From: Lingula anatina
Lineage: Eukaryota; Animalia; Brachiopoda
Assembly: GCA_051362555.1 (NCBI GenBank)
Contig: CM120640.1
Location: 22,010,001-22,074,000, forward strand
Direction of reading: 5' to 3'
Length of the DNA: 64,000 nucleotides
In this document: piece by piece, positions 1 to 63,400 of the stretch
Layout of the letters: each line of letters starts with the position of its first letter
How positions within the stretch are numbered: the first letter of the stretch is position 1
Position numbers and translations under genes: made by a program
Notes under the pieces: generated by a model
What the model was told of the DNA's origin: nothing
Seen by the model: only the letters and a program-made list of their open reading frames with translations
The model's database searches: none

Positions 1-2839
1 GCATACTTTCTAAGGATCATTGGAATAGGACGATATTTAAACAACAGGTTGGACAAGTCTGTGCCTTACCCACAGTACTGTCAACTGTGGTTCCAGAAGA
101 AAGATGGAAACACCGTGAAGGTCTACAATGAAGTGGTGCCCACTGTGGTACAAATTATGCCAGAACAGAAGTCAAAAAAGTAAGTAAATTTTCTATTTGA
201 ACATCTTAGTCCAAACTTTTATATCAATGTCAGTTTCCATTTTACACTTATAGCCAATGTAAAATGAACCAAATTTCAATGCGTGTGTTTCCAATTAAAT
301 TGTACTAAGACTCTCTACATCTATATTGGACTTTATAGTTACCTATAACATAATGAAATAACATGATTTCAGTGCATGCTTATTAGCTGAAAAAGACCAA
401 TTTACACATGATATGAGATACATAACTAAAATGCAGCACTACTAAATTATAATTAAAAATATTGCAACCCTTTATTATCATCCAGATACCCAAAAATGAG
501 GTTTTTCCTGCATCTAATTATTTCATAATCCATCTATCTTTGTGCTGATTTAAAACAATAAAAATATAAAATATTGGCATTTATATTTGTCATTGCAATG
601 TATAAGCATAGGCAACTAAAAGCTTTAAACTCAATTTAACATATGTCTATTTTGAGGTGAGATATCAATCGGTATGGGGCGTAACTTCCTCCCTGGACAA
701 GATTTTATCACGAAAATTGGCAGAGTTGACCAGAAGTGTATAAGTTACAATCTCGTGCTGTTATTTTGGTTTAAATGTTTTTGTTAAGCCTCTAATTACA
801 GATTTTCATCAAACAAAGGCTTTATTTTGCTTTATCAATGATAAAATGTGAACTAAGAATTTCAACAAAAATCAATGGCAGAGTTTAAGACTGCATTCCC
901 ACATATTTTAGATCAATCTATCTCCGTGGGAACTCACTACATTACTGTCAGCTTAGCCGGCTTAAATGTCTGTCTCCCCTACTAAAATCTGTAAGGGGGT
1001 AATTAACTTCCGTGTGCACTCAGCTGACATCAATTTAGCTTGAACCCCCAGGGAGTTAGGTTGATCCAGATGGATTGATCTAAATCTGTGGGAATGCAGT
1101 CTTAGAGTACTTAATGGTATCATTAAATTGGCGTTAAAACAGTGATCGTGCTGCATAGGTAAAAGAGAAATATGAGAAACCAATTTTTCAGTCTTTATCC
1201 CAAAATCAAAAATATGACATCACCCTTAAGTTGACATATGTGCGAATGTTAATTAATTTAGTCACTGAACACTGAAGATTTATTTATTGCCCAAAAGAAT
1301 GTATGTAAGGTAGTAAATAAGGAGTTTTGGGTGAAGGATGACAGTATCCTTAATTAATTTAGTCACTGAACACTGAAGATATATCTTTTACCCTAAAGAA
1401 TGTATGTAAGGCAGTAAATAAGAAGTTTTGGGCAAAGGGTGACAATATCCTTAAAAATCATTTTATGAAATGTTTTTTCTAATCATGTGGTAAGTATTAT
1501 ATATATAAAATATAGACCAGGCTTTGACCACAGCTAGTTCATCTGTTAAATTGCCTCCTCAGAATAATGCAATTTCCTTCCACTAACATTAATCAACTCT
1601 GTTGGCAGCAGTTTTTAGATGAGGAAATGTTAACATCACAAATATCTGGAGTGAAACAAAAAGGAAATATTAACATCACAAGTATTTGGAGTGAAACAAA
1701 AATTTAAACCTAAAACCTGTTCACAAATTATCTAATGAGTTACATGTAGTGTTCATTTTGTAGATTTTCCAAAAAATCCAACTGATGACAATACATCTGA
1801 AAATAATTTCTGTATATTTTTCAGGTACCATCCCGTTCTTTACTTATGCTATGGCCCAAAGAATTACAAACTGAAAACAGTTCCATATGCTGTGTCTCTT
1901 GTGGACAGTAAATGCAAGAAGCCACTCAATTTCCTTAAGGTTGTCAATACCAAAGAAGAAGCAAAAGGAAAAACACAACTAGATTTCGGGGTTTGTGTCA
2001 CACCATTTAATTTCAACTACAATAAAACACTGAGTTTTGTAGAAAATCTTGAAATACAGAAAATGTTTGGAGCACAACATTTCACTTTCTACAATTTCAG
2101 TCTCAGTGATAAAATGAAGCCAGTGCTGAACTCTTATGCATCAGAAGGAAACATAAGTGTCATTCCTTGGCCTCTCCCTCCACACTTAAAGGTAGACATT
2201 TGGCCTCCCAATAAAAAACATGTACCTAATATATTCTATTTTGCCCAATTGGGAGCCCTAAATGACTGCCTTTACAGGAACATGTACAGATTCAAGTACT
2301 TGCTCTTCTTGGATTTAGATGAAATTGTTGTCCCTAGAAAAGATAAAACCTGGAAAGAGATGATTGAATCAGCTGCAAAAGTCAAAGGGTTTACTAAGAA
2401 TGCAACTAGTTATATGTTCAGAAATACTTTTTTCCGATTAGACTGGGGACTGCTGAGTGATGACAGCCTTTCTGACAAGAGGATACAATTATATCACCCT
2501 TATTCCTTGCTGTCTGTCAACAGGGAGAAAAGAATATGGAATGCTGGCTCTAGATCAAAATACATGATAGTTGATGCCCAATGTGTCTCTGTGGTTGGTG
2601 TTCACCAAATATGGGGATATATAAGTGGAAAGCGTTGCTACAAACACAAATCAATGATAATGCCTATCAACATAGGACTACTTCATCACTACCGCAACTG
2701 GAAAAAGCCAGAGCAGAAAAAACATGATGCTATGATTAAAGACAACAATATCTTCAGGTTTAAAGATAGTATAATCAGTAGGATAGAAGACAGGTTCAAG
2801 AAAATAACATCACAAGGACAAATAGAATTTATCCAATGA
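1..2839 (+). CDS. Glycosyltransferase family 92 / DUF23 protein (galt-1-like beta-1,4-galactosyltransferase), 5'-partial; exons <1-179 and 1825-2839
   Basis: Frame 1 is open from base 1 to a GTAAGT donor at 180. It joins in phase at TTTTCAG|G (1825) to ORF 1892-2839. GT92-type motifs: FGVCVTP, FGAQHFTFY, QLGALNDCLYRNMYRFKYLLFLDLDEIVVP (DxD), RSKYM, LLHHYR. Confidence 0.85.
639..1241. mobile_element. Possible old non-autonomous DNA transposon with degenerate terminal inverted repeats; hosts the MITE at 886-1104
   Basis: ACATATGTC..GAGGTGAGATATC (639-666) is a degenerate inverted copy of ATGACATCACCCTTAAGTTGACATATGT (to 1241). Confidence 0.3.
886..1104. mobile_element. MITE family A (about 210-245 bp, possibly PIF/Harbinger), copy 1
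   Basis: TIRs TAAGACTGCATTCCCACA..TAGATCAATC and GATTGATCTAAATCTGTGGGAATGCAGTCTTA. Internal sequence is shared with the copies at 2890, 4946 and 24451. Confidence 0.8.
1249..1452. repeat. Tandem duplication, two units of about 101 bp
   Basis: AATTAATTTAGTCACTGAACACTGAAGAT occurs at about 1251 and 1352, and the similarity continues downstream in both units. Confidence 0.8.
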
Positions 2840-2889
2840 ATGTGAATAAAGAAACAATATTTTTATGTTATTGCCAAAACTGTAAAAAA

Positions 2890-3100
2890 CATTCCCAGAA
2901 ATTTAGATCAATCCATCTGGATCGACCTAACTCCCTGGGGGTTCACGCTAAATTGCTGTCAGCCGAGTGCACAGGACAGTTAATTACCCCCTTACAGCTT
3001 TTAGTAGGCGGGACAGACACTTAAGCTGGTTAAGCTGACACCAATCTAGTGAGACTCCCCAGGGGGATAGATCGATCTAAATATCAATGGGAATGGAACC
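2890..3100. mobile_element. MITE family A, copy 2 (inverted relative to copy 1), in the presumed GT92 3' UTR
   Basis: Ends CATTCCCAGAAATTTAGATCAATCC and GATCGATCTAAATATCAATGGGAATG. It is the reverse complement of the 886-1104 element. Confidence 0.8.
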
Positions 3101-3359
3101 TAAGTTTGAAGATAGTATGTCACACATTTTCAATGTATTGTGTTCACAGTTAAAAGTTCATGTCAATGGCGATGACAACAAAACAGGTGATGACTATATG
3201 TACAGACACAGCATGTATGTACATAAAAAAGTCTTTTTTTATTCAAATGCAATAAATGACATTGTATTAAATTCAAACACCATTTTCAACTCAAGTCTCA
3301 GAAATAAATTTATATTATCAAATTTGAAGAACCAGGAGTAAAATATTATTTCTTAAATT

Positions 3360-4351
3360 AACAAGAGCATCAGAGACGATACCGCCTCCGGATATTGTAC
3401 CACCAGCTGGGGTAAGTGCATTCAGAAAATTTGAATGGTTCAGTTCATGGTGAAAAGTAGGTCTAAAGTCAATTTCAAGGTCACAGTGAGATTGCCAGTA
3501 TATGACTTCCTATTCAAGTTCAATAGTAACAATGGGCATGTCTCTGCTAATTTTGGAGTAATTCACATTTTGTTTTCACCACTGAATATTGCGATGTTGT
3601 ACTTTTTATATAGCGCAACGCCTAAACCATATCAAAAACAAAAAAACTGACAACACCTCCAGTATTGCACTTGACAAGTTCTACAAATTGCAAAAAACAA
3701 AAGGTCTCTAGCATCTACGGTTCCAGAATTAGAGATAGTTATCAGTTTTGGAATCTAATGGCTGCTTCTCCCATGCAAAAAGCATCGATTGACCCCAAGC
3801 TCCCAAAGATGGAAGGAGTCCCTGATTGTAACCCCTCACTATAATAATGAGAGCTTAGGTCTGTGTAGTTTCTGAAAATTGGTACAAACAAATATTTTTT
3901 TTGCAGAAAATTCCCATTTTTTGAAAATTGTGGCCCGTTTGACCTTGAAATAAAGGTCGAAAGTCAAATCCAAGGGCATATATGGAATCTCCACATATGA
4001 CTTTCGGTCAGACTTCTGTAGTAATTTTCCCATAATACCTTCAGTTTAAGAGAAATAAAAATAGCATTGAATTTTCAAAAATTTTGACAAGGGTGCATTT
4101 CAACGAGTGTCACGCCCACGTCAATGCACCGGCTGAGACATAAATACCAGGGGGTTCAAGTTGAGATTATATGTGACCTAAATCCAAGAGATGGGGACAC
4201 AGGTCCTTGCGGTCTAGGAGGAGAAGAAGGGGTAATGGTAAATTGTATCCGACGACACCCTGCGGAGCCAATGAAGCCGGCGGAGCTGTAGGAGACAGGT
4301 CGGGACTAAAACCATGAGTACTGCCAGTGTACACCCTGGTGGTACTAATAA
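3360..4351 (-). mobile_element. Non-autonomous Helentron/HINE-like element, short copy with one satellite unit
   Basis: Starts AACAAGAG..GATACCGCCTCCGG..TGTACCACCAG and ends GTACTGCCAG..CTGGTGGTACTAATAA (subterminal inverted repeat plus terminal hairpin), inserted in an AA/TT site. Colinear with both ends of 15181-20732. Confidence 0.75.
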
Positions 4352-4411
4352 TACATTGTTAGCACCAATGGCTACAGCCTAGGTCAAATCCTTTTCATTG
4401 ACCACAGTCAC

Positions 4412-4461
4412 AGATCATTAAGCTCTCCTGATATTCATATATCAGGAGAGCTTAATGATCT
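4412..4461. repeat. Perfect 23-bp-arm palindrome with 4-nt loop
   Basis: AGATCATTAAGCTCTCCTGATAT-TCAT-ATATCAGGAGAGCTTAATGATCT. Confidence 0.9.
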
Positions 4462-4945
4462 CCTGATATTCATATATTCAGTAGATATAGGTCAGCATTC
4501 TATTTCACGTATAGCTACTTTTGTAATTTTCACTGCAAGTAAAACTGGGTTCCCATACCTAGATCGATCTAACAGGATCTACAGTTAGTATGATAGGGTC
4601 TGGGAACAGTCCCTTACACTCAGTAGCATTCTGTGTACTATAATAAGACAACGAGGCCACCTGTGAGAAAATATTTTAAATGAATTAAGATCCTCCTCCA
4701 CAACCCATTAGGAAAAGTAAATACTGCTGTAGGAGGAAATATTAAAAACACATCAGTCATCTACTTAAAAGTTGTGGGTGCTTCAATGGGTTGTACCAAT
4801 AATAAGTTGTAATTCTTGATAACAGAAGGATTCCACAGATATTGTGATGAGATAAATATGTTGACCTTCTACACTTTCTTGCAAGCAACTGGAAGAAACA
4901 AAGTCAATTTAAGTAATGGGTACAAAATTGCTCTGCTGTGTTTCA

Positions 4946-5158
4946 CCCCATTTCCATAGATAAGATCGACCTACTTTAGATCGACCTAACTCCCTGGGGG
5001 TTCACGCTAAATAGCTGTCAGCCGGGTGGACACTAAAGTTAAATACCCTCTTAAAGCTTGTAGTAGGCGGGACGGACATTTAAGTCGGATTATCTGAAAG
5101 TAATCTAGTGAGACTCCCCGCGGGGATAGATCGATCTAAAATCTATGGGAATAGAGCC
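4946..5158. mobile_element. MITE family A, copy 3
   Basis: AGATCGACCTAACTCCCTGGGGGTTCACGCTAAAT core, ending GATCGATCTAAAATCTATGGGAATAGAGCC. Confidence 0.75.
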
Positions 5159-6020
5159 TTTGGGGTGGTTATGTCCATCTTCTTATGCTTAGCAATAAAA
5201 ATTTCCATGATCACATTCAGAAGTTATATAACTTCCAATGTTTTTTTTAAAGTTGCCTAGATAACATTTTAGAAATTTTACAACATGCTTAGTAAAAGAC
5301 TACTAATAATTCCTTGAAAAAAATCTTATTCCTTAGCAACCTCATGCTTTTGAAGCACTGTCAAGTATGAAAACACTGATAGTAGTGTTATTATCACAAA
5401 ACTCTGACAACAGCAGCTTGTGCCCTGTTAGGATTCCCCATCATTAAATTATTGTTTCAGTACTCAGAGCCACAGCAGTTCCTGCTGAATATTCCCAGGC
5501 TATCCAATCTCCTGGATTTATACTAATCAAGAAATAAGGGTTATAAGGGATGGTGGTGGACTAATCAATCAATGGGATTCCTTTTCTCTTCCTGCCACAA
5601 TTTAACTGCCTAAAGATCAATTGAACACACTGGGAGAGTTAAATTTTCAGAAATGCAATAGTGTTGTTGCCAGGAGACTGCTGTAGAAATACCCTGTATT
5701 GATATTCAACAACAACAGTATCAGCATAATATAACACAACTTTTGTAATCTCCCAAAATGGAGGAGAGAGACAATTAACTGGTACATAGACTGAAAATGT
5801 TCATTTAATAGCACATTATATCAAACAGTGTTTCTGGAATAGTTGTACTTACCCTATTGGCTACAGAAGCATAAATGAAATGAAAATTGTCATTTCAAAC
5901 ACAAAAACATAAGTGCATAAACTTAATGAGGGACCTTTTTTTGGTTGCCATGATTATTGGGATATAATGTTGGTGTCTCAAAATGTATGCATGTGCAACA
6001 ATGGTCATAGTAATACTTAC

Positions 6021-50260: not shown

Positions 50261-50328
50261 CACAGTGGCGTTTAATTGTGTTTGCAGTGCTCTTTTACTA
50301 AATTTTTAGACTTTTTTCATCGTTCTAT

Positions 50329-50360
50329 CAAGGAGTTATAACATCTGTTATAACTCCTTG
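50329..50360. mobile_element. 32-bp palindromic P-element-like remnant with a 7-bp TSD
   Basis: GTTCTAT|CAAGGAGTTATAACA-TC-TGTTATAACTCCTTG|GTTCTAT. Confidence 0.7.
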
Positions 50361-51458
50361 GTTCTATCAACTCGTTGTAAATATGAGTTTTCAAAATTAT
50401 AATGCCAGGGACTTAAAATTTGGACACAGGTAGCCACATATGTTATTATTAATAAACTGCGTGCATTTTATGTTATCTCATATCCATATTCATATTTTAG
50501 TAAAACCATGTTTGCCAATTTTTCAGGAGATCATTTTTCAAATTACTAGTAAAATAAGCAAAAGTTGCCCAATTATACTGGGAATAGATGCACAGCATGT
50601 AATCCATGTGTTAGCACTCCTTTTAACAGTTTTTGTTGTGCTAACACAACGCACAATTTAAATTTTGGTTGTAGGATTTTCCAGCAGAGAAATATGTACC
50701 AATATGTGAAAGCAGCGTGAAGGATTTTTTGTCACATACTAGTATGTATGTGCAATATGAGGGAAAAATTCATTTTCATGCAATATCTTTCTTTTAAAGT
50801 CATTGTGTATGCTAGTTAAAAGCCTATAAGTCCTTGTTCATATCATCTATTATATACTCTTATATATATATATATATATATATTTTTGTTTATTGCCCTA
50901 CCACCCTTTCCCAACTTAAAAAGGCATAATAAAGAACCATGTCATTTAAAAAATATTGACATTGACCTAAATCATTTAATGAAAAATTGTGCAAACCATC
51001 AAATTCACATGTGGGGCAGGTCAAGCAATGTTTTTTGAGTCAAAGAAAATTGTTTTATTTTCCTCAACAAAAATTGAATTTGGCTAAAAAATCGTGTATA
51101 GAATACCCTTAAACATATCTGTCATGGCATGAGTTTTAAATTGATGAAATTAGTCGTAATAAAAAAAATGATAGGGCAAGTAATTTTTGATGAGATCAAG
51201 TAAACTCCAGCCAATGCTGCCTTCAAGCAACAAAATTAGTTAGGTTTATGCTGTTTATAGTTTTTGAGTCCGATAGATGAAAAAATTCATATCACATAAC
51301 AGTAACATTCAAGTTTTTCTTTCTTATGTATCTATTTAATATTATTAAAGGTGCTGTAGAAGGAAAATATCTGATATACTGCAGTACATGTGCTGCACTG
51401 TATTGTACTCTATGAAGATTTTATTCTCTCCAGTTAATCAGTAAAAAAAACTGTCAAG

Positions 51459-54400: not shown

Positions 54401-57400
54401 GTCATTATTGTCAGGATTTGGTGCAGCATCCTTGGTTCAGGAAGACCTCAATGATGATGTAAGAGATTTTTTTAAAGAAAGAAGTAGATGCAGTTCTAGA
54501 GTTACTGAATAATGCTTCTTATTTACAAAATTAAGTCAAATTTCAATTTGTTTAAGATTTTAGTTGTAATTTTCTACAAAAAGTAATTCAGTAGAAAAGA
54601 CCTTGTTTTGCCAAGAATATTCATAATCTATTGTATCTAGGCACAACAAAGAAAGCAAGTAAGTGATTATTTCCAGTAATGTTGATATTTATTTTTCATA
54701 CAGGCTCCTGATCCAAATGAATACTATGACCCCTTTCCTGGCTCAGACATCATGAAACAACTTAAACCTAAGAAGATTGATCCCAAAAACTACCCAGCAC
54801 CTGATGACTGCATACTTGAAATGGTCAATGCACATCTCAATGTGAGTGTCAAGCTTTTGATTCAAATTGCTCCCAGAAAATTATTATTTTTGATACATTG
54901 TTCCAGCCTCAATGGTTTTTCAGTTTAGAATTTTTTTATATAGTAACCTATTCAGAATTGATACAAGTTGCAGTCTATATGTTTAACAGCTTTTGCTGGC
55001 TTGATAATTTAGCATTAAAATCTTATGTCTTTTCATCTTTTCCAGATGAGTAAGGATGGGAAGAAACTGAAGTGCATAGTGAGTTGATAAATTATATTTG
55101 AATAGATGATGTCTCTGATTTTAATAGTATTGATAAAAATGGTAATCTGTCTTTGTTTGAACCTTTTTCAACTACTTCTCAGTAATACCACAGGTATGAA
55201 AATAGTTTCATTGGATCTTAGTTTTGATAGTCAGAAAGGTTTCATTTATGCTAGATCCTGAAATTTGATTTACCTGTTGACTGTTTCGTCTGTTCACTCT
55301 GACAGACTTGGTCACAACTGAATTACCTGTTCAGGTGAAGGTGAAGCAATGTAATTACCCAATATGGACAATAAAGAAGGTGAAACATCAAATGGAAATG
55401 AAAAGATCAGGAAGTAAGATATCCAAAAATAAGAAAGACCAAAAAGTGGAAAAATCCAAAGGACAGGTTACAATCCCATACGTGAAAGGAATATCAGAGA
55501 AAATCATGAATGCAATGAGGAAGGAAAACATCGGAGTATCATTCAAACCACACGCAAAACTCAGAAACTTTCTTGTACATCCAAAAGATAAGATAGAAGA
55601 CAACAAGAAGTGTGGAGTAGTATATCAAATCGGGTGTGGGAGCTGTGACAGAGTCTATGTTGGAGAGATGGGAAGAAAATTAGAAACAAGACTAGAGGAA
55701 CACAAGAAAGATGTTAAGGAAAATGTAGGTGAGGGAGTTAACACCAGATCCAAATGCTCTATGTCGACAGGAGTTCTACACAAATCTGCCATCACAGATC
55801 ATATGTCAGATAACAACCATGTGCCAAAATGGGACAATGTAAAGGTGCTAACCGGTGAAAATGACTACAGCAAACGCAAAGTTTTGGAATCGATCTGGAT
55901 AAGAAGGAAGAAACACACCATGAACAGAGATGAAGGAGCACACAAGCTGTCCCATGTGTATGACGACATTCTCAAACCCACCCTGGGGGGAGGGGGCGAG
56001 AGGGGCTAACAAGTCATCATCAAGACTGAGATAATTACCTGTTCACCTTCACCTGAACAGGTAATTCAGTTGTGACCAAGTCTGTCAGAGTGAACAGACG
56101 AAACAGTCAACAGGTAAATCAAATTTCAGGATCTAGCATAAATGAAACCTTTCTGACTATACCACAGGTAATCAGAACCTTTTGCAACCCCACAAAATTT
56201 GCTTATGAATCACTGATTATCAGAAATTTTGGTCACACTTTAGTATTCTTATTAATTATTTGATAACCTTTAGGTGGAAGGTCAGTCAGTTACAAATAAA
56301 ATTACTAAGTCTCATTTGACCTTTGGCTAAATATCAATCAACCAACATTTTGAGTTTTTCATTGATCTTGTACATGCCATCATACTACATGGGATGGATG
56401 ATATAAAAATTACAAAAGTTCAGATATTTCTGGGCTGACAATCAAGTAAATATTTTAATAACAAATAAAAGAACTTCCACATGTCTTCAACTACTTCTCC
56501 CTTTTTATTCATTCACTCTCTTTATGTAAGTATAACTAAAAGCTATATGATGTATATCTTCAGAGTGTGGATGACCTCATGGACAGCCGTGTTCTTTGTG
56601 CACTGGTCAACTCTTTTGTACAGGATACATTTACACCAGAAGTTTTGCTCAATGACAGGTAAATTAATATTAATCTTTAGTTGATGTATATTTTCACATT
56701 ACAGAAAAAATTGTAGCTATTATTATCTTGCTTTCAAAGAAGTGTTTTGTTAGATAAGTTTATTTCAGTTACTCACTCCAACATTTTATATATCATTTAC
56801 GTTTATTTTATTTGTAAAGGTGGACTATGAACTTGTGCTTACGGACAGCAGAAAAGATGTTTTATACTGAAACTCCCTTTGATTCTGAAGACTTAGCTGA
56901 GGTGGGTATTTTCTAACAAATTTTCTTCAGGGTATTATTACAAAGAAAGCACTATTTCATTTTTTTACTGAAATGATAATAGGTGAAAATGAAGCAGTAG
57001 ATGCACGTAAAATATTTGTAACGTGACAGGAAACTTAAAATGATTTTAGAAAGTAGTTTACATCCTTCCACTAACAGTTTTCATGTTTTTTAGGGAGATC
57101 CTATGGCTGTGTGTGCCTATTTTGCATTCTTCTTCATGGTTGGCTACAAATTCAGGCAGGCCAAGGCAGTTGTCAACAGAATAGTAAGGACACTTTTTTC
57201 TCTCTGTTATAACACTGTACTACAGTTTATATACACTTATATCTAGCCATTTGAAATCAGTTACTAAAGAGTATTTATACATGTAAATATATCTTATATA
57301 AAAACTGGACCATATTTAGATTTTATATAGATTAATTCAAAGTTTAAGATGCCCTGAGAAATCCATATTCAGTGTCCCATTTGTTAGAGAATCACTTTTC

Positions 57401-60400
57401 TCACTTTTAGAGTTTACAAATGGTCTTTTCAGAGACTTTTTTTTGTTACTATATCATAGATTAATTGTAATTGTGTCAACTCAATTTACAGGAGTGGCTG
57501 CATCGACTTATTCGTGAAAACAATCATGAAATGGATGAACTGGCCACTGTGGCTACCAACATACAGGAACTGAGGAGGAAGAAAGATCTGAAACAGAAAT
57601 TACAGATGTACAATGATGGTAAGATTTTATTTTTGAATCAATTGTCAAACCTTCAAATTAATTTCTTTTAATAAAGATATTTTATTACTTGTAAGGGAGG
57701 TGTTTACTTCTGTGTTCTCTCTATGTATCTGAAATGGCTCTCTTGAATATGTTATTGTGTGACCCAGTAGCAATGTCTTAGTAACTGTCAATGCTCAGTG
57801 CTTGGTACACGTATAGAAATATGTTATGGTAGATTTACATTTCTATTGACTGGGCTTGTACATGTCCATTGCACATCTCCCAGTATATAATGCATACATT
57901 TTTCTGCAGAAATTGGAAGGATTCAAGACATGTTTGATCTAGAGTACTGCAGAAAATGGCTTGATCATGCCATAAAGGTTCAGAAAGAGGTACGTATTTT
58001 CATTCATTTATTATTTGCCATCATCATTAACTATGTCATATATGAACAATGATAAACTATTTTCTATAGCAAAACATAAATTAAAAAAAGTATTTACAAA
58101 CAAGGAAGAAGACATATATTAACAAAAGCAAAAAAAAAGTTGAAAGTGATTTACCTGCATAAATACAGTGCAAAATACTTTTAATTTCAGACTCACAAGC
58201 TGATCTGGACCAAAATGAAGGAAAAATTTGAAACTTTGCCAGTTCCAAGAAACATTTCTATCAATGACCTTTGCTTGTCATTGTCTATCAATTTGGTAAG
58301 ATTATCAAATTGATTGTGCTGTTTTGAAAACCCTAAATTTGTTATTATTTCTCAATTTCTCAATTTTGTACAATGTTTGAGCACAGTGTTTATGCTAATT
58401 GGATAGATATGCAAATCTTTAACATGAAAACAATAGAGCAACATGGTAACATAGGGCTATGTATAGTGTAAGCCTTTAAGTGTATCGATTAGATTGTTAT
58501 TAATTTTGATAATTTCAGAGCCTGACTTTTGGCAGTGCATTTTATCTCAGTAACAACAAAGAACAAGTAAATGAGCTGAGAAAGATGATTTTAAGGAACA
58601 AAGAGACAGGAGAATACATTGAAGATTTCACTGCCAAGAATAAAGGTCAGTTTGAATTATATTTTATTGAAATTCTGAAATAAAGATATTTTGTTGTATG
58701 ATTATTTTCATTATTGTTTTAAATATTGTGTAATTATTGTATTTTGGGGTGGTGTTTAAAATTGGATTTTCCTTTTTTCAGAGCCAATTCGAAAGATACT
58801 CAGACTTCATGCATATGAAACAGTAGAAGTGAATCCAGAAAAATATCCACAATATGATGTAAGTGATTTTTTAATAGTTTGAACAAAGCTTACAAAAATT
58901 CAATGGTCACCAGTTCAAGCAGTACTAAGACAGGTATCATGACAATTTTTCCATACTGAAAATACTGAAAATATTAAACATCCTGAAAATGACAATGAGA
59001 TGTTACTTTTACAGTAGAAGTGACTTGGGAAGCAGAATATATACTACCTGTACATCACATATCAGCACATGTATTGATGATTTTTCAGATTTTCTTTGAA
59101 AGTCCATCAAGGAACAAAAGACTGGAGGCAGGCACTGAGTTTTTGTATCAGATTTTCCCAGGGACATTTGAACAGTGGCACAAACAAATGTTTAGGGCCA
59201 TCAAGGAAAATGAAGTGGATTCTGTGAAAAAGATGGTGTTATTCTTCAGGAATACTCCTTCATTTATCAATGCAAGAGAGAAAACTACAGGCAACACTGC
59301 ACTTCATATAGCTGCCAGATTTGGGCAATATGTGAGTTGTGTATTAAACAGGGACAATCTGTTATATATTCATTTACATTATGCAAGGTGGGCTTTAGAG
59401 GGACAGGGGAAGTGGTCGCCTTACTGTAGTCTCAAATACAAGATATACCTTTTAAAAAATAAATGCTCTTTGGGTCAATGTTGTTTCAACTTATGCAATA
59501 TAGAATTTGAAATCATAAATATGCCTAAATGTGTATAGTGATCACTTGTTTGGTTTTTGAGAATTTTAATCATTACTAAAATTCTGAAAACCAAATAAGT
59601 GATCACTATATATTCAGGCATGTGAAAGTTAGAAAACTGTTAAAAAATCAATATTTGAATAGATCTTTACTTCATACAGATTTTATTATAATCTACAGTT
59701 ATTTGGATTGCCTTGAAGGACATAAATTAAACAATTGTGTTACATTACTTTGCTAAAGAAATTGACATTTGGATGATTTATATGTCATATAAATCTTTCT
59801 TCGTTCTAGGAAATAGTGCAGTTTTTGCTGGAAAGCAATGCTAATATAGATGCCAGAAATGCTTACAAGTACACACCATTGTTCTCTGCTTTGGAGGGTG
59901 TACACAGGAGGGTGGGGCACGTAAGTATTGCTAGATGTTTTCAGTTGCATTGCTTAAAAAATGTAATAAAAATCAATAAACTTATTAATCAGGACCTTTG
60001 AAGTAAATGTTAAACTAAGATGTATTTATATGGCTTTTGCTGTTTAACATCATTTCACAGCTATTCTTTAAATTCTTGATAAATTCATGCAAAATTTGTG
60101 TGCACTTAATACATTGGCACATTTGTCATTCTAGCTACTTGTTGAATGTGGCTGTGATGTTAACAAGAGGAGCATTAAAGGTCTGACTGCCTTTGAAACT
60201 GTGAAAAATGACGAGTTGAAAGATTATCTCATAGGTAAGAACTTTTTTGTTTGTGGTGTACTTGACTCTCCAGATGTTTTATTTGTCAAGATATACTTTT
60301 GTCACAGGTGAAATTCTGATTTTCACAGAGCATAAGGCACCAATTCACAAACAGAATGTACTGAAGTAAAAAAAATATCCATTCCAGAGGCATATGAGCA

Positions 60401-63400
60401 CTACTCTGATGTAGTTCCTAAGATAATGGCAGGTGACCTGGAGGTTCTGGAGGAAGTTGTCAAAGATCACATCACTGGAGTCAGGCAACTGAACAGTCTA
60501 CGCAGCAGGTGAGATACAGGGTGTCCACATGGCACAGGTCATATGCCCCATATGCAGTTTTATAATGCATTCTCTTTTTTCCTAAATCTGAAATCCAGGA
60601 AACAATTGTTGAATTCACCAATTAATTTACAGCTGCATCAGGCAGCTGTTTGTAATGGTACTCAGTACAGTACCTGTAGTGAAGACTGCAGACCCTTTTA
60701 TTATTATTATTAATATTATTTTTTAACTCTATTTACAGGTGTGTCAATGGTAGCACCCTGATTCACACAGCAGCTTACTTTGGTGCAGTATCTATAGTAA
60801 AGACCTTGCTCACCTTGAGAATGGATGTGGACCTTAGAGACTACAAAGGAGCCACACCACTTCACAGGTCACAGAATGTAGAGACAATGGAGGTCAGTTT
60901 CCTCTGAACAGTTTTAGGTCAAACTGTGGAAACCCCAAAATTATACATTTAGATAACTTGTATCAAAAAGAGTTAATAAAGATATGCTGGGATTGCCAAT
61001 GGTTTGGAAAAAAAGTTCAACTGGGCATTTGCAAAATTTTAATATTGAAATTTTAAATGTTTAATTTTAGAATTGAAATTTTAGTTTTGATGGAAACTTG
61101 AAAAGAGCATAAGGTAGGTGCAATAATATTACTGTAAAATCTCTGTGTATTTCCAGGTTCTGCTAGAGGCAGGAGCTTCAGTGAATGCAGAGGATCTGGA
61201 AGGTAACACACCTCTTCATGTGAAATGCTATGGAGAGACTGGCAAGGAGACACAGCTTGGGTGTATAGAGCTGCTATGTCAGAGTGGGAGTAAACTGGTG
61301 TCTAGAAACAATAGGGTAGGGATCCCATTTATAACTCTGCAAAGGTTTGAAAGTGATGGTTGTTTTTAAATGTGGTTTCAACATTGTCAGTGAAGATTTT
61401 ATAAAATAATTTTATCTGATATTAGAAAATTCTCCTACAAACCAAATATGGATTAAGTTTCAATTTAGAATTGTTCAAATTGCCTTGACTTTAATTTCAT
61501 TTTAGAAAAATAATTTTAACATATATCAAAAGATTATTTGTAAAATCTGCATGAAAGTGATAAACATATCTGAAATTCTGCAGGGTTTGATGCCAATCCA
61601 CTGCTGTGCCATGCAGGGAAGAATTGATGCCATTCAGTTGCTGCTGGCAGCAGACAAGAAAGAAGAAATCAAGAAAGATCTCTCCAAAGAGGACCCAAAA
61701 CTTCCACCCAGCTTGCCACACCTAGCAGTGGCCAATGACTGCATGGAGTGTGCTGAATGGTAAAGTGTTACTATGATTTAACTCCAAAGTTTTCATTAAT
61801 TTTTATCACAATATAAAAAATGCACATAATTCATGAAAATGGATTAGAATTCAAAAAAGATACTTATCTTTGTCTGAGATCAGTGGTAAAAAAATCAACG
61901 ATCTATTTTACAGGTTGATTGAAAATGGATTTGAATTTAAAGAAGGAGAGCCAGACTTGCTAGTACAAAGAATTCTGGCTGAACAAGTGAAAGTGTGAGT
62001 AGAATTAGGAATTTTAAAATCCGATTACATTTTGATGTCATTCACTTTGTAGGATAAAGTATGTACTTAACAAGTCATCAATGTATTACGAGAAAGTGTA
62101 ATATTTACTGACAGATTTTGATCATTATATTAAAACTTAATTGGAAATGAAATTTATTGTAAATATATAAGCATTGATATCCTTTGTTTTAATTTTTTTC
62201 CAGTATTCAACAAGGAGAAGCTATTAAGTTTTTATTAGATCATGGAGCCTCAGCCAATCCAGTCTATCCTGGGGGAAACACGTAAGTTAAATGTTGATAC
62301 TTTCCACATTTTGTGACAAATACAACTTAATATCTCTACTGAAATCAGTGTGCACCCCTTCAGAGAGGTTGTTATATGTGAATATCAAATTTGAAGTTGT
62401 TCATTTGACTAAGAGAATGCTGGCCTTGGTTTGATATTTGAATATCTTTTTCCGTTCAATTTCAGTGCCCTGCACTATGCTGCCAGTATGAGTCACTCCA
62501 CAGAGATCCTGGAGTTGCTAATGGGTTATGGTGCCGAGGTGGATGCCCCTAACGAGGACCAAGCCACGCCTTTGTTCTTCTCCACTCAGTGCAACAACCA
62601 GAGTGCAGCCAGTGTGCTCATTGAAAATGGAGCTAACTACCGGTGGAAAAATGCTCAAGGTACAGTGTTCAGTTATCACTTGAGAAAAAAGTGCAATTCT
62701 TATGGTTTGCCTTAATAGATTGTCTTTAACTGCAAAAAGGAATTAATACCTTGGCTGCAAAACGGTTATCATATTAAATCTGAAATATATGTCACTTTTA
62801 TTATACATTTTTGCAGGACTGACAGCTTTTGATTGCATCCTGGACTTTGATGATTGGGTTGAGTGTGGCTACTTCAATGATGAGATAAGAGCTAGACTCA
62901 AAGGTAAATGATTAAAGTTAAACATTTAAATGCTATCAGTTTCCAATACCCCACACACAACATAATTCATATGCTTAGCTTGTTAACCTTGTCCAAGTCT
63001 ATCAGCATGAAATCAGCCAATTGAATTTTTTTTACATGTGTAATTATACCGTTTTTTAATCCAGATAAAATATTTCCATCACATTTTAGTCAGTGCAATT
63101 TTGAAAAAATGATTTTACCAAAAGGAAAAAAAGATAAATTAATCTAACCATAATATGGATTTCTTTTCTACTTGTAGCTTACAGTTTAAAACACACCAGA
63201 GATCTCATCCGTGCAATCAGCAAAAAGGTAAAGCATTCCGGTCCTATACGCCAACCACCACGCACTCCTGACCTCACGCGGCAGGCTTCCAACCTGAGTG
63301 GGCAAACACTGCTCCCTATCAGCAGAGGTTCCAATGCCCTTTGGTCAGCCAAGACCAGTGCATCTGCCACTACCCCGGCTGCCTCCCCGCGCCAGATTAC

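What the first reader, a model, noticed from the sequence alone, without database searches (positions are those of the whole stretch)
56069..56111. Hammerhead-like ribozyme with a compensatory G3-C8 core swap in a young Penelope pseudo-LTR
Seen: the 3' pseudo-LTR folds into stem I (GUU/AAC), core GUGACCA instead of canonical CUGAnGA, a 6-bp stem II (GUCUGU/ACAGAC), GAAA, a minimal quasi-palindromic stem III (ACAGU) and a GUC triplet at 56106-56108. Established: Penelope-like elements carry minimal, often dimeric type I hammerheads in their pseudo-LTRs, and core positions 3 and 8 form a Watson-Crick pair. Inference: both positions are exchanged (C3-G8 to G3-C8), which looks like covariation rather than decay. 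This would be a rare natural variant missed by CUGAnGA pattern searches.
Basis: partly seen in the sequence, partly recalled or inferred. Interest (0 to 1): 0.8.

Follow-up and report, generated by a model that had tools for sequence, protein, structure and literature searches.

The report
Swapped-core hammerhead in Penelope retroelement
A young, abundant jumping-gene family in this animal genome carries a small 'hammerhead' RNA motif in which two paired core letters have traded places, a swap also seen in two other related families; it likely still cuts itself weakly, but cutting is untested.

Summary
The motif is real and lies in the 3' pseudo-LTR of a young, 5'-truncated Penelope-like element: GIY-YIG fragment, perfect 119-nt inverted copy, 30-nt tail, 12-bp target duplication. 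G3 and C8 are nearly fixed in the family (alternatives under 0.3% of contig depth in run X1), so this is not decay of one copy, but that uniformity does not show selection. Across related elements the 3:8 pair covaries (C-G 51, G-C 21, U-A 6 of 88 rows), and G3-C8 occurs in two further families; one origin is not rejected. Laboratory C3G/G8C double mutants, including one in a Penelope hammerhead, cleave partially. Cleavage here is unshown: three RNA runs gave no pile-up of ends, the predicted fold disfavours stem I, and G3 may mispair with C17. I found no natural G3-C8 in print, but the key 2017 survey was unavailable. This scan noted such swaps before on other DNA (17 unchecked notes, at least 6 genomes). 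Verdict: new variant of a known kind, moderate interest.

The parts
55185..55196 (+). Left copy of a 12-bp target-site duplication
   Evidence: Identical to 56159-56170; occurs only twice in the window
55197..55226 (-). 30-nt Penelope-type tail present only at the inverted end
   Evidence: Its reverse complement continues the pseudo-LTR end and resembles the loose ends behind 56160 in other copies; 30-40 bp tails are described in PMC8557442 and PMC11167929
55227..55345 (-). Inverted 119-nt copy of the pseudo-LTR, with the second motif copy at 55276-55318
   Evidence: 100% complementary to 56042-56160; motif match
55347..56009 (+). 5'-truncated ORF: linker end and GIY-YIG endonuclease of a Penelope-like element
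   Evidence: Stop-free 220 aa with a GIY-YIG-type motif at residue 90; 197 homologues at E<=1e-10, several with PF01541; no Pfam hit for the fragment itself
56025..56070 (+). Strong upstream hairpin whose base overlaps the stem I 5' strand
   Evidence: Predicted fold, z -3.2 for 56025-56125; pair probability 1.0
56069..56071 (+). Stem I, 5' strand (3 bp with 56109-56111)
   Evidence: Sequence; predicted probability only 0.00-0.17
56072..56078 (+). Core GUGACCA with G3 (56072) and C8 (56077)
   Evidence: Sequence; G3>C 139 of 52,247 and C8>T 120 of 61,305 contig depth in run X1
56079..56079 (+). Extra unpaired A between positions 9 and 10.1
   Evidence: Sequence; one extra nucleotide here in all 15 rows of alignment A2; described in PMC4209133
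56080..56099 (+). Stem II (6 bp, G10.1-C11.1 closing pair) and loop
   Evidence: Pair probability 0.98-1.0 for five pairs and about 0.6 for the sixth
56100..56108 (+). GAAA, minimal quasi-palindromic stem III (56103-56107) and GUC triplet; predicted cut between 56108 and 56109
   Evidence: Sequence; cut site inferred from the NUH rule (PMC8495972); no RNA end pile-up seen
56109..56111 (+). Stem I, 3' strand
   Evidence: Sequence
56112..56119 (+). Splice-donor-like site 5 nt after the predicted cut (GT at 56114-56115)
   Evidence: Sequence; 26 RNA reads of run X12 leave the element behind 56113 into mixed sequence; use as a donor is inferred
56159..56170 (+). Right copy of the 12-bp target-site duplication

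Best explanation
This is the minimal type I hammerhead motif of a Penelope-like retroelement's pseudo-LTR, with its 3:8 core pair swapped to G3-C8 throughout the family, and it likely still cuts the element's RNA weakly after 56108 when two copies pair up or the element's protein assists. Shown: the anatomy, the element context, near-fixation of G3 and C8 in the family, and covariation of the 3:8 pair across related families. Inferred: stem III forms between two motif copies of a tandem transcript; G3 pairs with C8 and places the 2'-OH of nucleotide 8 as in the canonical core; cutting trims the element RNA from a longer transcript. This particular copy is probably silent, because a read-through RNA would fold its two inverted pseudo-LTRs into a 119-bp duplex.
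For: Every other core letter is canonical and the extra A plus G10.1-C11.1 match the published minimal form. In run X1 (276 contigs laid) only 7 places of the 141-nt stretch vary at 4% or more, none between 56037 and 56124. In 80 loci of related elements a descriptor with free positions 3 and 8 gave 41 hits, 34 Watson-Crick (C-G 20, G-C 10, U-A 4), against about 3 hits per shuffled set. A covariance model found 91 matches; of 88 distinct rows the 3:8 pair was C-G 51, G-C 21, U-A 6, wobble 4, unpaired 6. G3-C8 occurs in two other families with different stems (the L009 family and the single copy L058). Trees need 2-3 changes for G-C. In the anole Penelope hammerhead, single C3G or G8C abolish cleavage, the double mutant partly restores it, and cleavage needs the element protein (PMC11167929, passages).
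Against: No cleavage evidence: 137, 40 and 399 reads in three RNA runs show no place where many molecules begin or end; only 10, 0 and 1 reads are 99% alike or more, and 81-91% run on into unlike sequence, i.e. mostly decayed copies in host transcripts. ViennaRNA gives stem I a probability of 0.17 or less, pairs the core with the cut site in the best fold, and scores the active-like dimer at -11.7 against -29.1 kcal/mol for the best dimer. G3-C8 is reported to be less active with C17 than with G17 (PMC3884650, 'data not shown'); this family has C17, whereas the L009 family has GUU or GUA. Uniformity among young copies reflects the source element, not selection. A single origin of G3-C8 is not rejected (p-AU 0.27 and 0.34). 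The model and alignment A2 were built from rows I picked with paired 3:8. Cleavage was not needed for insertion in vitro in the anole element.
Confidence: 0.6

Rival explanations
1. The fold and the 3:8 pair are kept, but this family's motif no longer cuts at a meaningful rate; it persists as a protein-binding, splicing or folding element, or as a passenger of the pseudo-LTR.
For: G3 with C17 is the less active context. The upstream hairpin takes the stem I strand in predicted folds. No RNA ends pile up. Cleavage mutants still insert in vitro. Naiad elements multiply without canonical hammerheads (PMC8557442, passages). A donor-like GT follows the cut site in many families.
Against: Both letters changed together, and across families changes at 3 and 8 keep Watson-Crick pairing; that pair belongs to the catalytically active fold (PMC3884650). 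The double mutant cleaves partly.
Confidence: 0.33
2. Two unrelated decay mutations in an old hammerhead happen to restore complementarity, or the motif is a chance match.
For: Low folding z-score, no Rfam match; decayed unpaired copies exist (6 of 88 rows; C3 reads without a listed G8 change in run X12).
Against: Near-fixation in a young high-copy family, 5 hits in 300 shuffles, expected position after the GIY-YIG ORF, and G3-C8 in two other families.
Confidence: 0.04

Closest known systems
Minimal type I hammerheads of metazoan Penelope-like elements (Cervera and de la Pena 2014, PMC4209133; parts 1-2 of 4 read)
   Same: Position in the pseudo-LTR, long stem II, extra nucleotide between 9 and 10.1, G10.1-C11.1, short stem I, palindromic minimal stem III, opposite-strand pairs about 100-700 bp apart, many solo copies.
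   Different: The only 3:8 covariation named in the parts read is U3-A8; here it is G3-C8. No activity measured here.
Engineered C3G/G8C double mutant of the anole Poseidon hammerhead (PMC11167929, passages)
   Same: Same G3-C8 pair in a Penelope-type hammerhead.
   Different: That is a laboratory rescue mutant with partial activity; this one is the natural, nearly fixed state of a family.
Natural core variants of Perreault et al. 2011 (PMC3088659, passages)
   Same: Natural compensatory change at the 3:8 pair.
   Different: The passages seen report U3-A8; the terms G3-C8 and G3C8 occur 0 times in the main text.
Penelope-associated dimeric hammerhead variants of Lunse, Weinberg and Breaker 2017 (seen only as a reference and via review PMC6765202)
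   Same: Diminished stem III and cleavage as dimers, according to the review.
   Different: Could not be read, so whether it already lists G3-C8 is unknown.

Membership tests
Penelope-like element (EN+) | C-terminal GIY-YIG endonuclease | tested here: met
   Motif at residue 90; homologues carry PF01541; the fragment itself has no Pfam hit
Penelope-like element (EN+) | Telomerase-like reverse transcriptase upstream in the same ORF | not testable with these tools
   The copy is 5'-truncated at 55346 and no genome is held
Penelope-like element (EN+) | Pseudo-LTR in direct or inverted repeat, with optional 30-40 bp tail | tested here: met
   119-nt inverted copy and 30-nt tail
Minimal type I hammerhead of Penelope-like elements | U4-G5-A6, A9, GAAA and a UH cut site | tested here: met
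   Sequence
Minimal type I hammerhead of Penelope-like elements | Watson-Crick pair between positions 3 and 8 | tested here: met
   G3-C8 is complementary and covaries across families; the canonical letters C3-G8 are not present
Minimal type I hammerhead of Penelope-like elements | Extra nucleotide between 9 and 10.1, G10.1-C11.1, long stem II | tested here: met
   A56079; 6-bp stem II with high pair probability
Minimal type I hammerhead of Penelope-like elements | Palindromic minimal stem III able to pair between two copies | tested here: inconclusive
   4 of 5 positions self-complementary, but the active-like dimer is not the favoured predicted fold
Minimal type I hammerhead of Penelope-like elements | Stem I closing the motif | tested here: inconclusive
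   3 bp possible; predicted probability 0.17 or less; stem I covaries across families (where it was required by the descriptor)
Hammerhead ribozyme (catalytic class) | Site-specific self-cleavage | not testable with these tools
   Needs an assay; ordinary RNA-seq showed no end pile-up, as also reported for the active anole motif

The most novel reading that the evidence does not exclude
Penelope-like elements have repeatedly and independently evolved active G3-C8 hammerheads, and this family pairs G3-C8 with C17 and an overlapping upstream hairpin as a built-in brake, so that the RNA is cut only in a dimer or when the element's own protein remodels it.
Probability: 0.2. Interest if true: 0.6.

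Novelty: new variant of a known kind. Interest (0 to 1): 0.38.

Why it matters
If it cuts, it gives natural support for the catalytic 3:8 pair in its least expected orientation and shows that CUGAnGA-anchored surveys (such as the descriptors in PMC8557442) miss whole element families. If it does not cut, it argues that Penelope hammerheads are kept for their shape rather than for cleavage. Sister families with C-G, G-C and U-A pairs and different cut triplets form a ready natural series for testing what these motifs do.

Tried and rejected
No genome is held, so copies could not be collected one by one; family variation comes from contig lays, whose tables hide 457 and 43 rows. Rfam: no hammerhead match. 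No RNA holder was listed; three raw RNA runs of the same species label showed no end pile-up, which cannot exclude cleavage. Related-locus scans of viral and prokaryotic genome collections found no relative (12 and 20 pattern matches, none confirmed). DNA pattern scans of viral contigs for the minimal form: of 121 G3-C8 loci 4 had stem II of 4 bp or more and 2 near-identical ones also stem I; of 120 C3-G8 loci 9 and 0; read as chance, and both scans were partial. The L058 row in the tree was a frameshifted match and its long branch an artefact; it was dropped and replaced by its in-frame 101-aa piece. Independent origin of G3-C8: favoured by the trees but not established. The idea that the upstream hairpin's 5' arm pairs with the strand behind the cut was rejected (probability 0.002 or less). 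An avoidance of C17 by G3 families does not hold generally: the window family and probably L058 have C17. Papers not held: Lunse 2017 and two others asked for by recalled ids. One of three supplement files of PMC4209133 was not searched, and figures are not held.

Full report
Observation. The motif is at the stated coordinates: stem I strands 56069-56071 and 56109-56111, core GUGACCA 56072-56078, stem II 56080-56085/56094-56099, GAAA, a five-base quasi-palindrome 56103-56107 and a GUC triplet. A second, identical copy lies on the minus strand. A descriptor allowing any Watson-Crick 3:8 pair found only these two copies in the window and 5 hits in 300 dinucleotide shuffles (thresholds set after seeing the motif). 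Rfam gave no hammerhead match and the 43-mer is not unusually stable.

Context. The motif lies 60 nt behind a stop-free 220-aa ORF fragment with a GIY-YIG-type motif. It has 197 homologues among 269 candidates, the named ones from marine invertebrates. The insertion runs from 55197 to about 56160: a 30-nt tail and a perfect 119-nt inverted pseudo-LTR copy on the left, the ORF fragment, the 3' pseudo-LTR, and a 12-bp direct repeat on both sides. Inverted truncated copies and 30-40 bp tails are described for Penelope-like elements (PMC8557442 and PMC11167929, passages). Exon-like stretches on both sides (weak calponin-homology hit, E 0.063, below cut-off) suggest that it sits in sense in a host intron; this is inference. 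A read-through RNA would pair the two arms (-221.7 kcal/mol), which would likely mask the motif in this copy.

The family. No genome is held, so I laid contigs of four DNA runs and then one DNA and three RNA runs on 56025-56165. Summed contig depth in X1 is about 69,000 over 56076-56108, about 600-6,000 over the ORF and 46-185 in the flank, which points to a high-copy pseudo-LTR end, of the order of a thousand copies; the tool warns that this is no copy number. In X1 only 7 places vary at 4% or more, all outside 56037-56124. G3>C has 139 of 52,247 depth and C8>T 120 of 61,305; a C8>G row is not among the 40 shown (43 hidden). So both swapped letters were in the source element. Loop positions are nearly as uniform, so this shows youth and not selection, and stem II covariation within the family cannot be judged.

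Related families. An alignment of the fragment with 34 of the homologues retrieved 80 loci, the best of 480 confirmed in a partial metagenome scan. A descriptor with positions 3 and 8 free gave 41 hits: C-G 20, G-C 10, U-A 4 and 7 unpaired or wobble, against about 3 hits per shuffled set. I aligned 15 rows picked as family representatives with paired 3:8, leaving out decayed copies, built a model and found 91 matches. Of 88 distinct rows the pair was C-G 51, G-C 21, U-A 6, wobble 4, unpaired 6 (the alignment leans towards the model). Of 76 matches with an intact core, 21 were G-C: 2 in the window, 18 in the L009 family and 1 in L058. Grouping by eye into 17 families (10 C-G, 4 U-A, 3 G-C; one U-G family left out) gives a matching probability of 1.5e-6 if families were independent, which they are not. 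Endonuclease trees need 2 changes for G-C without L058 and 3 with it, and place the L009 family beside a C-G family (97/96, 93/89), but the test of one clade did not reject joining the window with the L009 family (p-AU 0.27 and 0.34). Repeated origin is therefore likely but not shown.

Mechanism. The 3:8 pair belongs to the active hammerhead fold (PMC3884650, passages). G8C alone is strongly damaging and C3G partly rescues it (PMC8495972, passage); the same holds in the anole Penelope motif, which also needs the element protein and whose cleavage was not needed for insertion in vitro (PMC11167929). Metazoan minimal motifs cut poorly and only as dimers or with an extended stem III (PMC4209133; review PMC6765202). 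Here the one-pair monomer stem III costs about 7 kcal/mol, stem II is stable, stem I is weak and overlaps an upstream hairpin, and the active-like dimer is not the best predicted dimer. G3 could also mispair with C17, a context reported as less active (data not shown in that paper); the L009 family has GUU or GUA instead. I conclude that weak, assisted cleavage is the most likely state (0.6) and loss of meaningful cleavage a serious rival (0.33).

RNA. 137, 40 and 399 reads were laid from about 12.4, 9.5 and 11.1 million read; most are diverged copies running into unlike sequence, some with broken cores (in X18, G56100>A in 168 of 284 reads and C56077>T in 142 of 258). No place with many starts or ends was listed. 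This neither supports nor excludes cleavage; none was seen for the active anole motif either.

Novelty. Six paper searches and the passages read show natural U3-A8 (PMC3088659, PMC4209133) and engineered G3-C8, but no natural G3-C8. The largest survey of these motifs (Lunse et al. 2017) was not held, figures are not held, and one supplement of PMC4209133 was not searched, so the claim is soft. Earlier notes of this scan report swapped cores on other DNA (17 findings in at least 6 genomes hold the search words, 8 shown, some of them U3-A8); they are unchecked and I do not count them as support. Verdict: a real, naturally compensated core variant of a known motif in a known element, activity untested; interest 0.38.

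Noticed in passing
window 56112-56119; L003, L007, L009, L037, L043, L053 just behind the motif: A splice-donor-like GT follows the predicted cut by a few bases in many families. In RNA run X12, 26 reads leave the element behind 56113 into mixed sequence, which may be donor use in host transcripts.
   Followed up: partly
window 56025-56070: A strong hairpin directly upstream whose 3' arm nearly repeats the sequence behind the cut site (56054-56068 versus 56107-56121). In all four DNA runs 4-6 contigs begin at 56068, the hairpin base, which could be a reverse-transcription stop.
   Followed up: partly
L020:2056-2111, L021:895-944, L064:2142-2191 and L064:1253-1305: Motifs with C at core position 4 instead of U, two of them with U3-A8; could be another core variant or decay.
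   Followed up: no
window 54704-54841, about 55049-55079, 56567-56659, 58999-59538, 62413-62715: Exon-like stretches of plus-strand host genes: a weak calponin-homology hit and ankyrin repeats.
   Followed up: partly
window 56159-56330: In runs X1, X3 and X7 a contig with several differences appears to begin at the right target duplication; it may be an empty-site allele, i.e. a polymorphic insertion.
   Followed up: no
window 50327-50366: A near-perfect 40-nt palindromic hairpin (weak Rfam match, E 0.038, far below the gathering score).
   Followed up: no
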